Virus record (IMG/VR): IMGVR_UViG_2693429642_000009
Reading direction: 5' to 3' (one strand)
Length of the DNA: 5,048 bases
From: a virus
Taxonomy: Duplodnaviria > Heunggongvirae > Uroviricota > Caudoviricetes
This document shows, one piece after another, positions 1 through 5,018 of this stretch. The notes beneath the pieces are model-generated. The model did no database searches and was not told the origin of the DNA. It worked only from the letters and a program-made list of their open reading frames with translations. Made by a program: the position numbers and the translations under genes. Each line of letters opens with the position of its first letter. The first letter of the stretch is position 1.

Positions 1-501
1 GATACGACCGGGAAACAGCGCCCCGTCCGTCTCGGTCGGTGTGGCCAGCACAAACGAGGCCGTCATGGCTGTCAGCTGCGACATCTGCTCCACCACCCAG
101 CGGTCACTCAGCTCCTGCTCCAGGTCCGCTTCCGGATTGCCCGCAACGAAATTCACCGCATCCAGAAAACGGGCATACACCCGGCGGCGGACCACCGTGG
201 CCCCCACCAGGCTCTGCAAATCCTCCGCCATCCCGGTGACCAGACCGAACAGATTGGACACCGTCAGCGACGGTCTGGCACTGCTGCCCCGGCCGTTCAT
301 CTCAAAACCGCTGCCGTCAATCGGGTATGCCTCATACTTACGCCCCTGCCAGGTGACCGGCTCCCCTTTTTCATTCAGCTCATTACAGAAAAAATACCGC
401 TCACCGCCCTGTACCGTCAGGTCGATTTCCCAGAGTACCACCCGCGGTGACTGCTCTGATTTAACCGACTCGTTCAGACTTTCTTCGTGAATATCCTGCA
501 T
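1..501 (-). CDS. L: Minor tail protein L (lambda gpL family), N-terminal 167 codons; the 3' end lies beyond the window start
   Basis: Manual reverse-complement translation from the ATG at 501-499 gives MQDIHEESLNESVKSEQSPRVVLWEIDLTVQGGERYFFCNELNEKGEPVTWQGRKYEAYPIDGSGFEMNGRGSSARPSLTVSNLFGL..., which closely matches my recollection of the lambda gpL N-terminus (MQDIRQETLNE...VVLWEIDL...RYFFCNE...). The frame stays open to position 1. The start overlaps the M stop as ATGA. The position immediately downstream of M matches lambda synteny. This ORF is absent from the supplied track because it is truncated by the window edge. Confidence 0.85.
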   Translation of the reverse strand, partial: MQDIHEESLNESVKSEQSPRVVLWEIDLTVQGGERYFFCNELNEKGEPVTWQGRKYEAYPIDGSGFEMNGRGSSARPSLTVSNLFGLVTGMAEDLQSLVGATVVRRRVYARFLDAVNFVAGNPEADLEQELSDRWVVEQMSQLTAMTASFVLATPTETDGALFPGRI

Positions 502-830
502 CAGTTCACCACCTGCTTAAACTCCGCGCTGAACTCAACGCGCAACATCCCGACCCGCGCAGACCACCCGGCACAGGTCACCTTTATCTGCCGGTATGCA
601 TAGGGTGGCTTCCACAAAAATGCCTTCCAGCCACCGTGCTCTGCCAGAAACGCTTCCAGATGCCGGGCCTCCTCCCGGGTCACGGAAAGCATCACCCGGT
701 ATGTTTTCAGGTCAGCATTCAGCCCTGCCGCCATACGCTGTGAGTACCCGTCACCAAAACGCACTTCACGCACCGATGGCTGCGAGTTCACCTCCATATC
801 CGGCTTCACTTTCCAGCGAAAGGTTTTCAT
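501..830 (-). CDS. M: Tail tip assembly / minor tail protein M (lambda gpM family), 109 aa
   Basis: The 109-aa ORF (MKTFRWKVKPDMEVNSQPSVREVRFGDGYSQR...LRVEFSAEFKQVVN) has the same length as lambda gpM and near-identical N- and C-termini as I recall them. It sits between H and L as in lambda. A Shine-Dalgarno-like GGGAG lies 6 nt upstream, and the start overlaps the H stop as ATGA. Confidence 0.93.
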   Translation of the reverse strand: MKTFRWKVKPDMEVNSQPSVREVRFGDGYSQRMAAGLNADLKTYRVMLSVTREEARHLEAFLAEHGGWKAFLWKPPYAYRQIKVTCAGWSARVGMLRVEFSAEFKQVVN

Positions 831-3400
831 CCACCGCTCCCTGATAACATACCGCCATCACGCAACTGCAGCCGGAGTTCATCCTGTGCCCCCTTGCGGG
901 CCATCTCATACACCGCTTTCATCAGCTGCGGCCCTGCCCGCCCGTTGGGGCCGTCGTTCTGAATCACCACGTGATTGTTCTGATTAAAATTAATGCCTTC
1001 CGCCCGCCGCATCTGCGCCGGACTTCCGGCACCGCCGACATAACCACCTTCCGCATAGCCCCGCATCAGGCGGTACAGATTGCCGACACCAATCCGGCTG
1101 GTCGCCTCCTTCGTGAAGACAAACTCCCCGCGATGAACAATCCCCGCAGGTTCATATTTACCCCCCGTCCCCGTAAATCCCCCGGTCGCGAAATGGAAGT
1201 TCGCCGCCGCAGCCTGAATGGCCGTCCCCGTGGAAGCGGATGCGCCACCACCGAAAGCACCACCAATGGCGCTGCCGATACTCCCGACAATCCCCACCAT
1301 CGCCTGCTTCAGAAAAATCTCTGTCAGCATGGAGAGCACGGAACGGGTGAAACCACGCCAGTTCTGTTCGCTGCCGGTCAGCATCGCTGCCATATTCTGT
1401 GCAATACCGTCAAAGGTCTGCGTGGCCACGCTTTTAACCTGCGAAAAACTGTCCGTCGCACTTTCCGCCCACTCGCCCCAGCCGGACTTCATCCCGGCCA
1501 TCCAGCTTCCACGAAGCTGCTCCTCCGCAGACCAGGTGTTCTTCAGTGCAGATGTGGCCTTCGCCAGCGCAGCCGGATTATCACCGTACACCTCACGAAG
1601 GCGCTGCTCTTCCGACTCCCGCTGCGCCTGACGGTCGGTGAGGCCGCGGGCTTTTGCGCTGATGGCGGCCTGCTTCGCGCTCTGCTGCTGTTCAAACCGC
1701 GCCGCCTGCTGTGCCAGCTCATTCAGCCGTTTCTGGTGTTCAACCTTGTCGCCCAGGTCAGCCAGCTGGCGTTTGTACTCCAGCGTCTCTTTCTCATGGG
1801 CCAGCAGGGATTTTTCCTGCTCAGATAACTGCCGTTTCGTGGCGGCCTCTTTCAGGACCACATACTGATTTTCCGCTTTCCATAAATCCCGGCGCTGCTG
1901 GCTGATTTTCTCATTCACACCGCTGTGTTTTTCCAGCGTCCTGAGCTCGGTTTCAAGCGCCAGCAGGGCTGCATGCGCCCGGTCTTCCTGGCGCTCACCG
2001 GCAGACACCTTCACAGCAGATGGCTTTTTCAGCGTCGACTCATAATCCTTTTTCGCCGCCGCCATCAGCGTGTTGTAATCCGCCTGCAGGATTTTTCCGT
2101 CTTTCAGGGCCTTATTCAGCTCTTCCTGCCGGGCGGTATATTTCTCCAGTGGCGTCAGCAGGCGCTCATACGCCTTCTGCGCCTCTCCGGTATACTTCAG
2201 CTGTGACGACTCACGCTCAGCCCGGTCCCTTGCCGCCAGTTCACCGGCTTTTTCCATATCCGACTGCAGCGTTGCCGCTGCCAGACCCAGACGGGCATTT
2301 TCCCGGTCATCCCATGCGCCCTGAAGGTTGGCCCGGAAAGAGGAGGTTTTACCGCGGCGCTGGCTCCGGCTCTGGTACCACTGCCATTTTTTATCCGCCT
2401 CATCAAATGCCTTCTGCGCACTGGCGAGCATATCCGCTGAGGATTCCGGACGACCGATATCCAGAATGGCATCCCACATCGATTTGAATGCCTTCCCTGT
2501 TTTATCCGCCCAGGTCTCCAGTGTTCCCATGTTTTCTTTCAGGCGACGGGTCTGCTCATCAAAGCCTTTCGTGGCGATATCGTTCGCCGCCTGCAATGCC
2601 CCGGCCTCGTCTCCGGAACGCTGCAGCTGTGCAACATACGCAATCTGCTCTGCCGTCACGTTACGGAACTGGCGCGCCATCGCCATCAGTCCCGACGTCG
2701 GGTCAGTGGTCAGCTTCCCGAAGGCTTCAGCGACTTTATCCACCTCCACACCGGATGCAGACGCAAAACGCGCGACACTCTGGTTGATGGCATCAAACTG
2801 TTCACCACCACGCACACCGGCATTCACCAGGGCTGCCAGTGACTCTCTCGCCTGGTTAAACGTCAGCCCTGCTGCCTGCCCGGCTCTTGAGAGAGTCAGC
2901 ATACGATCGGCAGTCAGTCCGGACTGATTACCGGAAAGAACCAGGGTTTTATTAAACGCTGAAAGCGTGGAATCTCCCAGGTACCAGGCGTACACCAGCG
3001 CACCTGTCGCCACCGCCAGCGAGGTGACCCCGACCATCGGCAGGGTGATCGCACCGGCGAGCCCCCTGAACATGGGGATCATCCCGCCGAAGGAGTCCTT
3101 CACCTGACCGCCCTGTTGCAGCAGGATCAGCCAGGGATTCTGACCACCGGCAAGCTGCGTGGCGATATCCGTAAACTGTGCGGGCAGGGTTCGCATGGCC
3201 GCTTTATACTGCCCGACGGAAATCCCGGCTTTTTGTGCAGCCAGCGCCTGGCGGCTCAGGCCCTGTTCAACAGCACTGGCGGTTTTTCTGGCGTCGGTAT
3301 CCAGACCTGAAAAATGACGCCTTACCCGGCTCATCTGCTCATCGAAACGGACAGCATCCAGACTCAGGTCAATAACAAGATCACCAACCGGCTGGGACAT
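827..3400 (-). CDS. H: Tail tape measure protein H (lambda gpH family), 857 aa
   Basis: The 857-aa ORF compares with 853 aa for lambda gpH. The N-terminus (MSQPVGDLVIDLSLDAVRFDEQMSRVRRHFSG...) and C-terminal third (...TQTFDGIAQNMAAMLTGSEQNWR...GGKYEPAGIVHRGEFVFTKEATSRIGVGNLYRLMRGY...) closely match gpH as I recall it. It has a long Ala/Glu/Lys/Arg/Gln-rich central region typical of tape measure proteins. A GGGAGG Shine-Dalgarno sits 8 nt upstream of the ATG. It is in the expected position between G-T and M. Confidence 0.95.
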   Translation of the reverse strand: MSQPVGDLVIDLSLDAVRFDEQMSRVRRHFSGLDTDARKTASAVEQGLSRQALAAQKAGISVGQYKAAMRTLPAQFTDIATQLAGGQNPWLILLQQGGQVKDSFGGMIPMFRGLAGAITLPMVGVTSLAVATGALVYAWYLGDSTLSAFNKTLVLSGNQSGLTADRMLTLSRAGQAAGLTFNQARESLAALVNAGVRGGEQFDAINQSVARFASASGVEVDKVAEAFGKLTTDPTSGLMAMARQFRNVTAEQIAYVAQLQRSGDEAGALQAANDIATKGFDEQTRRLKENMGTLETWADKTGKAFKSMWDAILDIGRPESSADMLASAQKAFDEADKKWQWYQSRSQRRGKTSSFRANLQGAWDDRENARLGLAAATLQSDMEKAGELAARDRAERESSQLKYTGEAQKAYERLLTPLEKYTARQEELNKALKDGKILQADYNTLMAAAKKDYESTLKKPSAVKVSAGERQEDRAHAALLALETELRTLEKHSGVNEKISQQRRDLWKAENQYVVLKEAATKRQLSEQEKSLLAHEKETLEYKRQLADLGDKVEHQKRLNELAQQAARFEQQQSAKQAAISAKARGLTDRQAQRESEEQRLREVYGDNPAALAKATSALKNTWSAEEQLRGSWMAGMKSGWGEWAESATDSFSQVKSVATQTFDGIAQNMAAMLTGSEQNWRGFTRSVLSMLTEIFLKQAMVGIVGSIGSAIGGAFGGGASASTGTAIQAAAANFHFATGGFTGTGGKYEPAGIVHRGEFVFTKEATSRIGVGNLYRLMRGYAEGGYVGGAGSPAQMRRAEGINFNQNNHVVIQNDGPNGRAGPQLMKAVYEMARKGAQDELRLQLRDGGMLSGSGG
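837..841 (-). promoter_or_regulatory. Shine-Dalgarno-like GGGAG for M, inside the 3' end of H
   Basis: The minus strand reads GGGAG, then CGGTGG, then ATG (830-828). This is consistent with translational coupling to H through the ATGA overlap. Confidence 0.45.
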
Positions 3401-4252
3401 ATCTCACACCTCCCGGAATCCCCGCTGAAGCCATCATTAATGCGGCATCATCCACCATGACATCCGCCACATCCGCAGACGATAAAATATCGCGCCCTCC
3501 GTCCCCACCGAACCGGACGCCTCCGGCAAGTCCTGCCGCTTTCTGCATCAGCATGTCTTCCTCATCCGGCATCTCCGTCTGCGCTTCCTCTCGCCGGGGA
3601 GCCAGCAGACTGAAATCAGAGGGATGCATATCCGGATCGCAAAAAAACAGGCTGAGTACAGCGTACGTCAGCCCGGAAAAATGCATATCCAGCTGGGTAT
3701 CCTGAAAATAATGCGTGCGGTAAAAACGGTGCCAGTCGGCATATTCGGTGGATGTCATCCCGGCAAGCATGGCGCGCCAGTCGGGTCTCCCCATCTCACG
3801 CGCCAGTCTGAGGGCAAAGTTCAGCTCGCCGTCGAAGACTTTCCCGCAGAAAAATCATCATCAGTCAGCGTGTTATTTTTCGCCACTTCAGTAATATCAG
3901 TATCCGGACGAACAGCTTCGATCATCCCGGACAGGCACAACACCACGTCTTCCGCCCGGGCAATGGCATCGGCAGGCCAGGTGGTGAGCACTTCCTGCTC
4001 TATCTTCATCACGGCCTCATTCATTGACGGTGACCCCGTTTTCTGCGGATGGTTATGCCACAGGGACATCGCCACCAGAAACGCGCCGGTTCTGACGAGA
4101 TCTTCCACGCTTACCTGCAGGTTGCCGCTGGATTCTGCCTGTTCTGCACGCCGTTTCAGGAGGGCAAGATGCTCGATACGCTGCAGCGCAGACAATTCGG
4201 AAAGCGTGACAGACACACCGTTATATTCAAATTGTTCTGTTTTCAGAAACAT
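3381..4252 (-). CDS. GT: Tail assembly chaperone G-T fusion made by a programmed -1 ribosomal frameshift (about 290 aa: G residues 1-138, then 152 residues in the -1 frame)
   Basis: A slippery heptamer G_GGA_AAG lies on the minus strand (plus coordinates 3839-3845), five codons before the G stop. The -1 frame is open from that site (GKVFDGELNFALRLAREMGRPDWRAML...) to a TGA at 3381-3383. The track's 137-aa ORF 3381..3794 is the downstream part of this frame. The arrangement is the same as the lambda G/GT frameshift. Confidence 0.8.
3409..3414 (-). promoter_or_regulatory. Shine-Dalgarno (GGGAGG) for H
   Basis: The minus strand reads GGGAGG followed by an 8-nt spacer (TGTGAGAT) and the H start ATG at 3400-3398. 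The site lies inside the 3' end of the G-T coding frame. Confidence 0.6.
3821..4252 (-). CDS. G: Tail assembly chaperone G (lambda gpG family), 143 aa
   Basis: The ORF (MFLKTEQFEYNGVSVTLSELSALQRIEHLALLKRRAEQAES...SLWHNHPQKT...SAGKSSTAS) closely matches lambda gpG (140 aa) as I recall it. A GGAGG Shine-Dalgarno sits 6 nt upstream of the ATG. It lies immediately downstream of V on the minus strand, as in lambda. Confidence 0.92.
   Translation of the reverse strand: MFLKTEQFEYNGVSVTLSELSALQRIEHLALLKRRAEQAESSGNLQVSVEDLVRTGAFLVAMSLWHNHPQKTGSPSMNEAVMKIEQEVLTTWPADAIARAEDVVLCLSGMIEAVRPDTDITEVAKNNTLTDDDFSAGKSSTAS
3839..3845 (-). promoter_or_regulatory. Programmed -1 ribosomal frameshift slippery heptamer GGGAAAG (X_XXY_YYZ) for G -> G-T
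   Basis: The plus strand reads ctttccc at 3839-3845, so the minus strand reads G GGA AAG in the G frame (codons Gly137-Lys138). This is the same heptamer used in lambda G/T. The -1 frame downstream is open for 152 codons. Confidence 0.75.
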
Positions 4253-4265: not shown

Positions 4266-5018
4266 TTACCCTGCAGCGCCCGCTTCAGTAACGGTGACTT
4301 CAGCCACTGCGGCGAACTGACCATTTCCGCTCACCACAGGGATCTGCACCTTACCTGTCGCCACGCCGTTTACCGTAATTGTCATATCTTTCACACTAAT
4401 GGTGGCTTTCGACGGATCGGCGGAAACCGCTCTGAACGTCTTGTCGGTTGCACTTTCCGGCTCAAAAGAAACCGTCAGGGTGGTTGTTTTCCCTTTTGCC
4501 ACCGTACCGGATGTAGGCGTCACCTTAATCGCACTGACCGGCGTAATTTTGCTGCGTTCTTCCGCTACAGAAGGTTTACCCACGTTAGTGACTTTCACCG
4601 TGCGGGTGATCACTTCTTTCGCCGTCACGGCCTTACCGATACTGCTGACCCAGCCACGAAACACATCCACCGTGCCATTCGGAAAACGGATTTTATAGGC
4701 CCGGACATCCCCGCTTTCAAACCAGCCTATAAGCCCTTTCTGACCTTCTTCTCCCGGTTTCCTGGCCAGCGTAAAACTGGTATCTCCTGCAGACTTCTGC
4801 CCCTGCCCGGTCGCGCTCCAGTCCGCGTCTTCATCATCCAGGTAGTTATCATCGTAGGGTTCTGCCGTCATCTTGCCCGGCGTCAGATCCTTCACCTTAG
4901 CCAGTCGCTGCCAGTCATCGTCTGACAACGGGTTTGCATAGGCGTCACCCTGACCGTTATAAACCCACAGGGTGGTACCGGCACCTTTTACCGGCTCAAG
5001 GGGATTTGGTGTTGACAT
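4266..5018 (-). CDS. V: Major tail tube protein V (lambda gpV family), 250 aa, with a C-terminal Ig-like (Big_2-type) domain
   Basis: The ORF ([48 protein letters not shown]...[40 protein letters not shown]...[39 protein letters not shown]) closely matches lambda gpV (246 aa) as I recall it. A GAGGA Shine-Dalgarno sits 4 nt upstream of the ATG at 5018-5016. The stop TAA is at 4266-4268. Confidence 0.95.

What the first reader, a model, noticed from the sequence alone, without database searches (positions are those of the whole stretch)
827..3400. Tape measure protein of 857 aa predicts a lambda-length tail; the central segment appears mosaic relative to lambda gpH
Tape measure length sets tail tube length, so 857 aa against 853 aa in lambda implies an essentially lambda-sized tail of about 150 nm. 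The N-terminal roughly 300 residues and C-terminal roughly 450 residues look near-identical to lambda gpH from memory. A block around residues 310-400 (minus-strand nt about 2200-2475, ...RPESSADMLASAQKAFDEADKKWQWYQSRSQRRGKTSSFRANLQGAWDDRENARLGLAAATLQSDMEKAGELAARDRAERESSQ...) looks substantially different, which suggests a recombinational patch in a region tolerant of change. The very C-terminus (about the last 60 residues) also looks more diverged.
Basis: partly seen in the sequence, partly recalled or inferred. Interest (0 to 1): 0.4.

Follow-up and report, generated by a model that had tools for sequence, protein, structure and literature searches.

The report
Swappable central cassette in lambda-type tape measure
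This is an ordinary, already-annotated lambda-family tail tape measure gene from an E. coli prophage, but its divergent middle block is one of two old, conserved, recombining versions, and the version here is the one recently linked to phages that enter cells without the ManYZ membrane protein.

Summary
ORF 827-3400(-) encodes an 857-aa lambda-family tape measure protein (TMP) within a V-G-T-H-M-L tail module. Against lambda gpH, residues 319-400 are 26% identical and the last 67 residues 58%, versus 85% for the rest. The flanks are not near-identical: overall identity is 78% and flank dS is 0.65-0.89.

The mosaic reading is strongly supported. Kati, STEC1575 and PhiR68_2 carry lambda flanks with the window-type block. 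Phage 1720a-02 carries window-like flanks with lambda's block. In a quartet test, 289:1 informative sites support one tree in the flanks and 0:73 in the block (p about 1e-76).

"Tolerant of change" is not supported. Within the window-type class, omega is 0.06-0.10 at dS 1.4-1.9. There are two discrete classes with no intermediates, found in 37% and 56% of 5,426 complete E. coli genomes. The block core switches from 21 aa with net charge -1 (lambda) to 27 aa with net charge +7.

A 2026 Nature paper already flagged this region in PhiR68.2, the one lambda-clade phage in its panel that did not need ManYZ and largely escaped the SNIPE nuclease.

Best explanation (inferred, confidence about 0.45): the block is an exchangeable module that sets the inner-membrane entry route. 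Tail length is predicted unchanged. Novelty is low: the protein is known and common.

The parts
827..3400 (-). Gene H: tail length tape measure protein, 857 aa plus stop codon
   Evidence: ORF. Pfam TMP_2 and Tape_meas_lam_C. 78% identical and colinear with lambda gpH. The exact protein, P0022, is annotated in NCBI as a phage tail tape measure protein.
2201..2446 (-). Central cassette, residues 319-400, window-type ('W-type') allele
   Evidence: 26% identical to lambda, against 85% for the rest of the protein. dS is saturated. Identity across phages is bimodal. Quartet sites are 0:73 here against 289:1 in the flanks. Omega is 0.06-0.10 within the class. Found in 2,031 of 5,426 E. coli genomes.
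2312..2392 (-). Basic, aromatic core of the cassette, residues 337-363: KKWQWYQSRSQRRGKTSSFRANLQGAW
   Evidence: 27 aa, net charge +7, no acidic residues, 5 aromatic residues. These properties are the same in all W-type sub-lineages. The lambda-type equivalent is 21 aa with net charge -1. AF2 places the loop SQRRGK (347-352) between two helices.
2441..2458 (-). Helix-breaking hinge DIGRPE, residues 315-320, at the left edge of the cassette
   Evidence: AF2 secondary structure shows a break at model residues 55-60. This coincides with the 319/320 split that the Ur-lambda authors used for AlphaFold3 hexamer models.
2489..2491 (-). Codon for Ala304, the residue whose A304V change lets lambda infect cells lacking ManYZ. 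It is conserved in the window.
   Evidence: for the sequence. for the literature.
2783..2839 (-). Small variable patch, residues 188-206 (VNAGVRGGEQFDAIN type; lambda has VKAGVSGEAQIASIS)
   Evidence: It reassorts independently of the central cassette. ev099 has this type with a lambda-type block. PhiR47_2 has the reverse combination.
830..1030 (-). Diverged C-terminal 67 residues (791-857), inside the cleaved gpHC fragment. Residues 822-853 correspond to the gpI-contact segment in lambda.
   Evidence: 58% identical to lambda. dS 0.83, dN 0.35, omega 0.42. Lambda residues 818-849 bind gpI. Co-variation with gpI is partial.
2633..3241 (-). Pfam TMP_2 domain, residues 54-256
   Evidence: E=2.8e-68.
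1286..1510 (-). Pfam Tape_meas_lam_C domain, residues 631-705
   Evidence: E=5.5e-21.
3821..4252 (-). Gene G, tail assembly chaperone, 143 aa
   Evidence: Pfam Phage_TAC_2, E=2.5e-50.
3381..3845 (-). T reading frame, reached by a -1 frameshift at the slippery heptamer GGGAAAG (3839-3845). It is open from the heptamer to the stop codon and overlaps the H start by 20 nt.
   Evidence: Pfam Phage_tail_T. Heptamer and open frame.
4266..5018 (-). Gene V, major tail tube protein with a C-terminal Ig-like domain, 250 aa
   Evidence: Pfam Phage_TTP_12 and Big_2.
501..830 (-). Gene M, distal tail protein, 109 aa. Its start overlaps the H stop codon in ATGA.
   Evidence: Pfam Phage_min_tail, E=8.4e-38. 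Junction sequence.
1..501 (-). Gene L, the N-terminal 167 codons. The gene runs off the end of the window.
   Evidence: Open frame from the ATG at 501. Homologous loci annotate minor tail protein L at this position.

Best explanation
Gene H encodes a lambda-family tape measure protein (TMP) from an E. coli lambdoid prophage. It should template a tail of lambda length.

Its residues 319-400 are one of two ancient, functionally constrained versions of a helix-loop-helix module. The module starts at a hinge (residues 315-320) at the beginning of the second half of the ejected channel-forming protein gpH*. Homologous recombination in the well-conserved flanks moves this module between lambdoid phages and prophages as a cassette.

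I propose that the cassette sets how the ejected TMP engages the inner membrane. The lambda-type version makes DNA entry depend on the mannose permease ManYZ. The window-type version, with a conserved +7 basic and aromatic core, allows entry without ManYZ. That would lower exposure to defences that act through ManYZ, such as the SNIPE nuclease and DicB.

Shown here: TMP identity, the mosaic structure, the recombination, the purifying selection, the charge switch and the prevalence. Inferred: the link to ManYZ.
For: Identity and genomic context:
- Pfam TMP_2 and Tape_meas_lam_C hits, V-G-T-H-M-L gene order and the G-T slippery site.
- 78% colinear identity with lambda gpH.

Recombination:
- PhiR68_2, Kati and STEC1575 are 96-100% identical to lambda in DNA across V-G-T-H-M, except for the block (33-58%) and a small patch.
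- 1720a-02 is 98-100% identical to the window in the H flanks but 97-98% identical to lambda in the block.
- Quartet informative sites are 289:1 in the flanks and 0:73 in the block, p=1e-76.
- Left breakpoints differ between recombinants, so there were several separate events.

Constraint:
- Within the window-type class, dS is 1.4-1.9, dN 0.13-0.15 and omega 0.06-0.10.
- Block identity across phages falls into two groups, 73-100% or about 41%, with nothing between.
- The core's net charge of +7 is the same in all sub-lineages. Lambda's core is -1.

Both versions are common: 2,031 and 3,035 of 5,426 complete E. coli genomes.

Link to function:
- Nature 2026 (PMC13190303) reports that lambda-clade TMP phages need ManYZ and are SNIPE-sensitive. 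The single exception was PhiR68.2, whose TMP differs at 'amino acids 300 to 400'.
- That region lies next to A304V, the gpH change that frees lambda from ManYZ.
- I show that PhiR68_2 carries the same cassette class as the window (75% identity).
- TurboID-ManZ labels gpH during injection.
- gpH* forms the trans-envelope channel.

AF2 places a hinge exactly at the left edge of the block.
Against: - The phenotype rests on one natural isolate, PhiR68.2, with no swap experiment.
- PhiR68_2 also differs from lambda at the small patch (residues 188-206). I did not compare it with lambda downstream of gene M.
- The window's cassette belongs to a different sub-lineage from PhiR68_2's and is only about 75% identical to it.
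- No phage with the window's exact cassette (the PhiR12 and PhiR5 group) was in the tested panel.
- A304 lies 15 residues outside the block and is conserved in the window.
- The AF2 model is a single-sequence monomer with mean pLDDT 72. The real assembly is reported to be a hexamer.
Confidence: 0.45

Rival explanations
1. The cassette is an immune-evasion or exclusion-evasion epitope rather than a host-factor switch. A defence protein or a prophage superinfection-exclusion protein recognises this part of the ejected TMP directly. Balancing selection then keeps two versions that are not cross-recognised. Use of ManYZ would be unchanged or secondary.
For: - The SNIPE DUF4041 domain crosslinks to a siphovirus TMP, and Bas14 escape mutations map within its TMP.
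- Two discrete classes at intermediate frequency are what frequency-dependent selection would produce.
- Single genomes can hold both types, for example AREA_504.
Against: - PhiR68.2 was reported as an exception for ManYZ dependence itself, not only for SNIPE sensitivity.
- The Bas14 escape sites are at residues 100-150, not 300-400.
- No exclusion protein is known to target this region of lambda-type TMPs.
Confidence: 0.2
2. The cassette is a functionally neutral ruler segment. Its only role is to contribute length. The two versions are interchangeable historical accidents spread by the general mosaicism of lambdoid phages.
For: - Length is nearly preserved (76 versus 82 aa), and all TMPs of this group are 853-859 aa.
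- Both versions work with identical V, G, T and M partners.
- From established knowledge (Katsura and Hendrix 1984; Katsura 1987; recalled, not checked here), parts of the middle of gpH tolerate in-frame deletions and give shorter tails.
Against: - Omega of 0.06-0.10 within the class at near-saturated dS shows strong sequence constraint, not just length constraint.
- The charge signature is conserved.
- There are no intermediates.
- The PhiR68.2 phenotype.
Confidence: 0.2
3. The cassette co-adapts with an assembly partner, such as the chaperones G/GT or the tail tube protein V, so each version must travel with a matching partner allele.
For: Suppressors of pel (ManYZ) mutants map to both V and H. 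Chaperones bind the TMP during assembly (established knowledge).
Against: - PhiR68_2, Kati and STEC1575 combine lambda-identical V, G and T (96-100% DNA identity) with the window-type cassette.
- 1720a-02 combines a third type of G with the lambda-type cassette.
- So cassette type is not linked to V, G or T type.
Confidence: 0.05

Closest known systems
Bacteriophage lambda gpH (NP_040595, tail length tape measure protein)
   Same: - Colinear over the full length and 78% identical.
- Same Pfam domains.
- Same position after the G/G-T chaperone genes and before M.
- Length within 4 aa.
- Conserved hydrophobic segment, glycine-rich C-terminal region and Ala304.
   Different: - Residues 319-400 are a different allele class: 26% identical, 6 aa longer, core net charge +7 instead of -1.
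- The last 67 residues are 58% identical.
- DNA-level divergence is substantial throughout (dS 0.65-0.89).
TMP of Escherichia phage PhiR68_2 (PV340576; PhiR68.2 in Nature 2026, PMC13190303)
   Same: Carries the same central cassette class, about 75% identical, with the same basic core and the same net charge. This is the phage reported as ManYZ-independent and only weakly hit by SNIPE.
   Different: - Its flanks are lambda's (96-100% DNA identity), whereas the window's flanks are about 80% identical to lambda.
- Its left breakpoint lies about 10 residues further in.
- It belongs to a different sub-lineage of the cassette.
TMPs of Escherichia phages PhiR12_1/2/4/5 and PhiR5_1, and of E. coli prophages such as the one in strain AREA_504 (WP_023909007)
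   Same: The block is 100% identical, and the DNA is 96-98% identical over the whole window. These are effectively the same gene.
   Different: A few substitutions. PhiR12_2 differs at the extreme C-terminus of H and in the Ig-like half of V.
Escherichia phage 1720a-02 TMP (AGR48343)
   Same: Window-like H flanks (98-100% DNA identity in most of the gene) and a window-like C-terminus.
   Different: Carries lambda's cassette (97-98% DNA identity to lambda) from about residue 316 to about residue 453. It is the reciprocal recombinant.
HK97 TMP with PtsG and the gp15 exclusion protein (Cumby et al. 2015, cited; details recalled from memory)
   Same: A precedent that the TMP of a lambdoid siphovirus determines which inner-membrane protein is needed for DNA entry, and that prophage-encoded proteins exploit this.
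   Different: An unrelated TMP family and a different host protein. This is a resemblance in how it works, not family membership.

Membership tests
Lambda-type tail tape measure protein (Pfam TMP_2 + Tape_meas_lam_C) | Significant matches to both family models | tested here: met
   TMP_2 scores 230 bits against a cut-off of 30.2. Tape_meas_lam_C scores 74.9 bits against a cut-off of 23.
Lambda-type tail tape measure protein (Pfam TMP_2 + Tape_meas_lam_C) | Full-length colinear homology with lambda gpH | tested here: met
   666/851 identical, with only 8 gap positions.
Lambda-type tail tape measure protein (Pfam TMP_2 + Tape_meas_lam_C) | Gene order: tail tube, then chaperone pair with a -1 frameshift, then TMP, then distal tail protein | tested here: met
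   V, G, T, H, M and L were identified by Pfam. GGGAAAG lies 18 nt before the G stop codon, and the T frame is open from there.
Lambda-type tail tape measure protein (Pfam TMP_2 + Tape_meas_lam_C) | Protein length sets tail length (about 0.15 nm per residue) | not testable with these tools
   Needs electron microscopy of virions. The 4-aa difference would amount to about 0.6 nm, much less than one tube ring (inference from established knowledge).
Lambda-type tail tape measure protein (Pfam TMP_2 + Tape_meas_lam_C) | C-terminal cleavage to H* and ejection to form the trans-envelope channel | not testable with these tools
   The glycine-rich region around residues 700-745 is 90-93% identical to lambda. 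Cleavage itself needs protein work.
PhiR68.2-type (window-type) central cassette | Block sequence falls in the non-lambda class | tested here: met
   73-100% identity to class members, against about 41% to lambda-type sequences, with nothing between. 75% identity to PhiR68_2.
PhiR68.2-type (window-type) central cassette | Conserved basic, aromatic 27-aa core with net charge +7 | tested here: met
PhiR68.2-type (window-type) central cassette | ManYZ-independent infection and reduced SNIPE sensitivity | not testable with these tools
   Reported only for PhiR68.2. Phages with the window's exact cassette were not in the tested panel.

The most novel reading that the evidence does not exclude
Residues 319-400 of lambda-type tape measure proteins act as a modular 'inner-membrane host-range cassette', analogous to the swappable receptor-binding ends of tail fibres. 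The two versions are held as a balanced polymorphism across E. coli prophages. The lambda-type routes DNA entry through ManYZ. The window-type uses its +7 basic, aromatic hairpin to cross the inner membrane without ManYZ, and so evades ManYZ-coupled defences such as SNIPE and DicB. Recombination in the conserved flanks would let a phage switch entry route in a single step.
Probability: 0.35. Interest if true: 0.55.

Novelty: already known. Interest (0 to 1): 0.3.

Why it matters
The protein itself is a routine, very common prophage tape measure. What has some value is the 246-nt segment. It is sharply bounded and naturally exchangeable, and its two conserved versions are both common in E. coli. 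One version coincides with the only reported lambda-clade phage that does not need ManYZ and largely escapes the SNIPE nuclease.

That turns a correlation resting on one phage into a clean swap experiment. The breakpoints are defined, natural near-isogenic pairs exist (lambda versus PhiR68_2 or Kati, and the window or PhiR12 versus 1720a-02), and there is a specific candidate feature, the basic core.

If confirmed, it would identify the part of gpH that reads the inner membrane, a question open since the pel mutants of the 1970s. It would also help predict which prophages and therapeutic siphoviruses evade entry-stage defences.

Tried and rejected
- Searching the 5.8-billion-protein collection with the 89-aa block returned only fragments of the same TMP, so it gave no census.
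- The exhaustive HMMER search of 1.84 billion representatives found the window-type block only inside this TMP family, at residues 316-404, plus low-complexity noise. An outside donor is therefore not supported.
- The full-length search returned the cap of about 8,000 hits. The 120 listed were all 96-100% identical, so they did not help with diversity or as an AF2 alignment.
- The best phage DNA hit, phage 204576, has 20 single-base indels in H. I discarded it as an error-ridden record.
- Brenes and Laub 2025, the source of the PhiR phages, is not held in the library.
- The Tai tail-assembly-interference paper has nothing on the TMP.
- Burmeister 2021 gives no positions for H mutations.
- PhiR11_1 turned out fully lambda-type, so it could not separate the small patch at 188-206 from the block as the cause of the PhiR68.2 phenotype.
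- A joint count of block type against flank type in E. coli genomes was not possible, because the search tool reports coverage and identity separately.
- I did not run coiled-coil software (none is installed) and used AF2 secondary structure instead.
- I considered and rejected chaperone or tube co-adaptation.
- I also rejected recombination as the cause of the C-terminal divergence between the window and lambda.
Full report
**What is in the window.**

All large, coherent ORFs lie on the minus strand and form a lambda-type tail module:
- V: 4266-5018, tail tube plus an Ig-like domain.
- G: 3821-4252, chaperone.
- T frame: 3381-3845.
- H: 827-3400.
- M: 501-830.
- L: the first 167 codons, 1-501.

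The lambda slippery heptamer GGGAAAG sits at 3839-3845, 18 nt before the G stop codon. The T frame is open from there to its stop.

The exact H protein exists in public databases on a 5,048-bp E. coli contig and is annotated as a phage tail tape measure protein (P0022). So the window is a whole draft-assembly contig from a lambdoid prophage. The nearest complete genomes are 98.4% identical (for example strain AREA_504, where the module sits in a full lambda-like prophage). The nearest isolated phages are the PhiR12 and PhiR5 group, at 96-97%.

**Checking the observation.**

I fetched lambda (NC_001416) and aligned the two H proteins. They are 666/851 identical (78%).

A 30-residue sliding window gives 83-100% identity over most of the protein. 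Identity falls to 23-40% between about residues 316 and 405, and to 53-73% over the last roughly 70 residues.

In a multiple alignment:

| Region | Identical to lambda | Fisher p versus the rest |
|---|---|---|
| Block, residues 319-400 | 21/82 (26%) | 2e-28 |
| Residues 791-857 | 39/67 (58%) | 7e-7 |
| Rest of the protein | 603/710 (85%) | n/a |

The phrase 'near-identical' for the flanks is not correct. Residues 1-300 are 86% identical and residues 408-857 are 80%. Synonymous divergence is 0.65 for residues 1-315 and 0.89 for residues 401-790. The window's H and lambda's H are well-separated lineages throughout.

**Is the block a recombination patch?**

Yes.

Codon analysis shows saturated dS (at least 2) and dN of 0.72-0.85 in the block, against dN of about 0.09 in the flanks.

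A translated search of about 50,000 phage records with the block gives a bimodal result. Matches are either 73-100% identical or about 41%, with nothing between.

I fetched 17 related tail modules.
- Kati, phiSTEC1575-Stx2k and PhiR68_2 are 96-100% identical to lambda in DNA across V, G, T, H and M. The exceptions are one sharp patch at 33-58%, which is the block, and a small dip around H residues 188-206.
- Phage 1720a-02 is the reciprocal case. It is 98-100% identical to the window in most of H, but 97-98% identical to lambda from about residue 316 to about residue 453.

In the quartet window, 1720a-02, lambda and Kati:

| Region | Sites for (window,1720a-02 \| lambda,Kati) | Sites for (window,Kati \| lambda,1720a-02) |
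|---|---|---|
| Flanks | 289 | 1 |
| Block | 0 | 73 |

Fisher's exact test gives p = 1e-76.

Left breakpoints differ. The ev243, 2E9 and 2B8 group switches near residue 300. Kati, PhiR47_2 and PhiR68_2 switch near residue 328. Several independent exchanges have therefore occurred.

**Is the region 'tolerant of change'?**

No.

Three sub-lineages of the window-type block are 71-79% identical to one another in protein. Between them dS is 1.4-1.9, yet dN is only 0.13-0.15. That gives omega of 0.06-0.10, as tight as or tighter than the flanks at 0.11-0.13.

The lambda-type block is recognisable as far away as N15, at 61% identity.

The two classes share only a few motifs (ML..A..A[FY]..AD..W and W[DE].R[EA].A[RQ]L.L.AA).

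Between those motifs the core differs in kind:
- Window-type: 27 residues, KKWQWYQSRSQRRGKTSSFRANLQGAW, net charge +7, no acidic residue, five aromatic residues. These properties are the same in every sub-lineage.
- Lambda-type: 21 residues, DIWNLRKDDYFVNDEARARYW, net charge -1.

An exhaustive HMMER search of 1.84 billion representative proteins found the window-type block nowhere outside this TMP family. It is therefore a deep allelic lineage and not an import from another protein.

**Prevalence.**

Counts across 5,426 complete E. coli genomes:

| Block type | Genomes | Places |
|---|---|---|
| Window-type | 2,031 (37%) | 2,992 |
| Lambda-type | 3,035 (56%) | 3,836 |

Some genomes carry both, for example AREA_504.

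Almost all lambda-type copies are at least 95% identical to lambda in DNA, even where the flanks differ by about 20%. I have no explanation for that asymmetry.

**Structure.**

A single-sequence AlphaFold2 model of residues 261-477 has mean pLDDT 72, and 80-93 over residues 321-370. It is all helical:
- Helix, residues 263-314.
- Break at 315-320 (DIGRPE).
- Helix, 321-346.
- Loop, 347-352 (SQRRGK).
- Helix, 353-433.

The cassette therefore starts at a hinge and forms a helix-loop-helix, with the basic motif around the loop.

The hinge matches the 319/320 split used in the 2025 Ur-lambda cryo-EM and cryo-ET study. In that study, AlphaFold3 hexamers of gpH residues 1-319 and 320-691 formed tubes that fitted the trans-envelope channel (PMC12617516).

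This is only secondary-structure-level evidence.

**Function.**

The Nature 2026 paper on the membrane nuclease SNIPE (PMC13190303) reports four relevant results:
- ManZ-TurboID labels gpH during injection.
- Temperate phages with lambda-clade TMPs need ManYZ and are strongly restricted by SNIPE.
- This region adjoins A304V, the gpH substitution that lets an evolved lambda infect cells lacking ManYZ. The original report is Gupta et al..

My analysis adds three points:
- PhiR68_2 carries the same cassette class as the window.
- Within V-M it is otherwise almost lambda.
- PhiR29.1 and PhiR11.1, which were in the tested panel, carry the lambda-type block.

PhiR29_1 also has the window-like 'PAQMRR' C-terminal segment. 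Since PhiR68.2 was the only exception in the clade, the C-terminal variant is probably not the determinant. That last step is an inference.

The best-supported mechanism is therefore that the cassette sets the inner-membrane entry route. This remains an inference:
- It rests on one phage.
- No swap has been done.
- PhiR68_2 also differs from lambda at residues 188-206.
- The window's sub-lineage was not tested.

Co-adaptation with V, G or T is rejected, because cassette type is unlinked to them.

**Tail length.**

All TMPs in this group are 853-859 aa. The window-type block adds 6 aa, and the window lineage lacks 2 aa at residue 460. At about 0.15 nm per residue (established knowledge from Katsura and Hendrix, recalled from memory), 4 aa is about 0.6 nm. 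That is far less than one tube ring, so a lambda-length tail is expected.

**The C-terminus.**

For residues 791-857, dS is 0.83, like the flanks, while dN is 0.35 (omega 0.42). The quartet supports the flank tree 60:0. Between the window and lambda this is faster protein evolution, not a patch.

In other phages (PhiR29_1, 2B8, PhiR47_2) the sub-segment 789-821 does reassort.

Lambda residues 818-849 bind gpI in the tail tip. In five phages, the C-terminal domain of gpI tracks the type of this H segment in four. ev243 is a counter-example, and genetic linkage confounds the comparison.

**Verdict.**

However, the gene is a common, annotated lambda-family tape measure, and the divergent 300-400 region has already been noticed in print.

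The new content is descriptive:
- Two constrained allele classes.
- Reciprocal recombinants with defined breakpoints.
- A charge-switched core.
- High prevalence of both classes.

It also supplies a ready-made swap experiment.

Noticed in passing
L010 (Stx2a_JNE082642) about 3322; corresponds to window H nt 1047, residue 349 (window about 2354): In the record examined (L010), a 1-nt deletion inside the basic core of the cassette (CGCCGCGGT becomes CGCCG-GGG) splits H into 401-aa and 522-aa ORFs. All 33 Stx2a-converting phage records (LC7278xx) give the same truncated or split block match. This is either a defective tail gene fixed in a clonal lineage or a shared assembly error.
   Followed up: partly
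L002 (phage 204576, CP025907), H gene: The top phage DNA hit has 20 single-base indels within H relative to the window. The record is error-ridden, and its 97% identity is misleading.
   Followed up: yes
window 4320-4620 (V nt about 400-700, the Ig-like C-terminal half): Window and PhiR12_2 are only 55-68% identical here but 92-100% identical on both sides. This is a second mosaic patch, in the decorating Ig-like domain of the tail tube protein. PhiR12_2_star matches the window across V.
   Followed up: partly
window 2783-2839 (H residues 188-206): A small two-state patch (VNAGVRGGEQF versus lambda's VKAGVSGEAQI) reassorts independently of the central cassette. PhiR68_2 carries the non-lambda state, so the patch is a confounder for the published ManYZ phenotype.
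   Followed up: partly
E. coli genome census: The lambda-type block is at least 95% identical in DNA in about 3,000 genomes, even where the flanking H sequence differs by about 20%. The window-type block has three sub-lineages that are 71-79% identical in protein. The asymmetry is unexplained. It could reflect a recent spread of one cassette.
   Followed up: no
window 830-934 (H residues 822-853), and gpI in L018 17997-18578, L021-L024: The gpI C-terminal domain (PMPVPYGEMLVGSRRISQDISTRDEGG versus VLPVLYGEMRVGSRVVSQEISTADEGDGG) tracks the type of the H segment that contacts gpI in lambda. ev243 breaks the pattern, and linkage is a confounder.
   Followed up: partly
window 3839-3845 (-): The lambda G-T slippery heptamer GGGAAAG is conserved 18 nt before the G stop codon, and the -1 frame is open from it to the T stop codon.
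   Followed up: yes
L012 (1720a-02) 800-1700: Phage 1720a-02 has a third type of G and of the start of H, 45-57% identical in DNA to both the window and lambda. Its H start is annotated 11 codons upstream with a different N-terminus.
   Followed up: no
P0027: A 99%-identical copy of this TMP is labelled Enterococcus faecalis in NCBI. This is most likely contamination or mislabelling.
   Followed up: no
L018 (E. coli AREA_504): The same genome carries a window-type prophage TMP (about 590 kb) and a lambda-type one (about 4.896 Mb), so both cassette types coexist in single cells. That gives ample opportunity for exchange.
   Followed up: no
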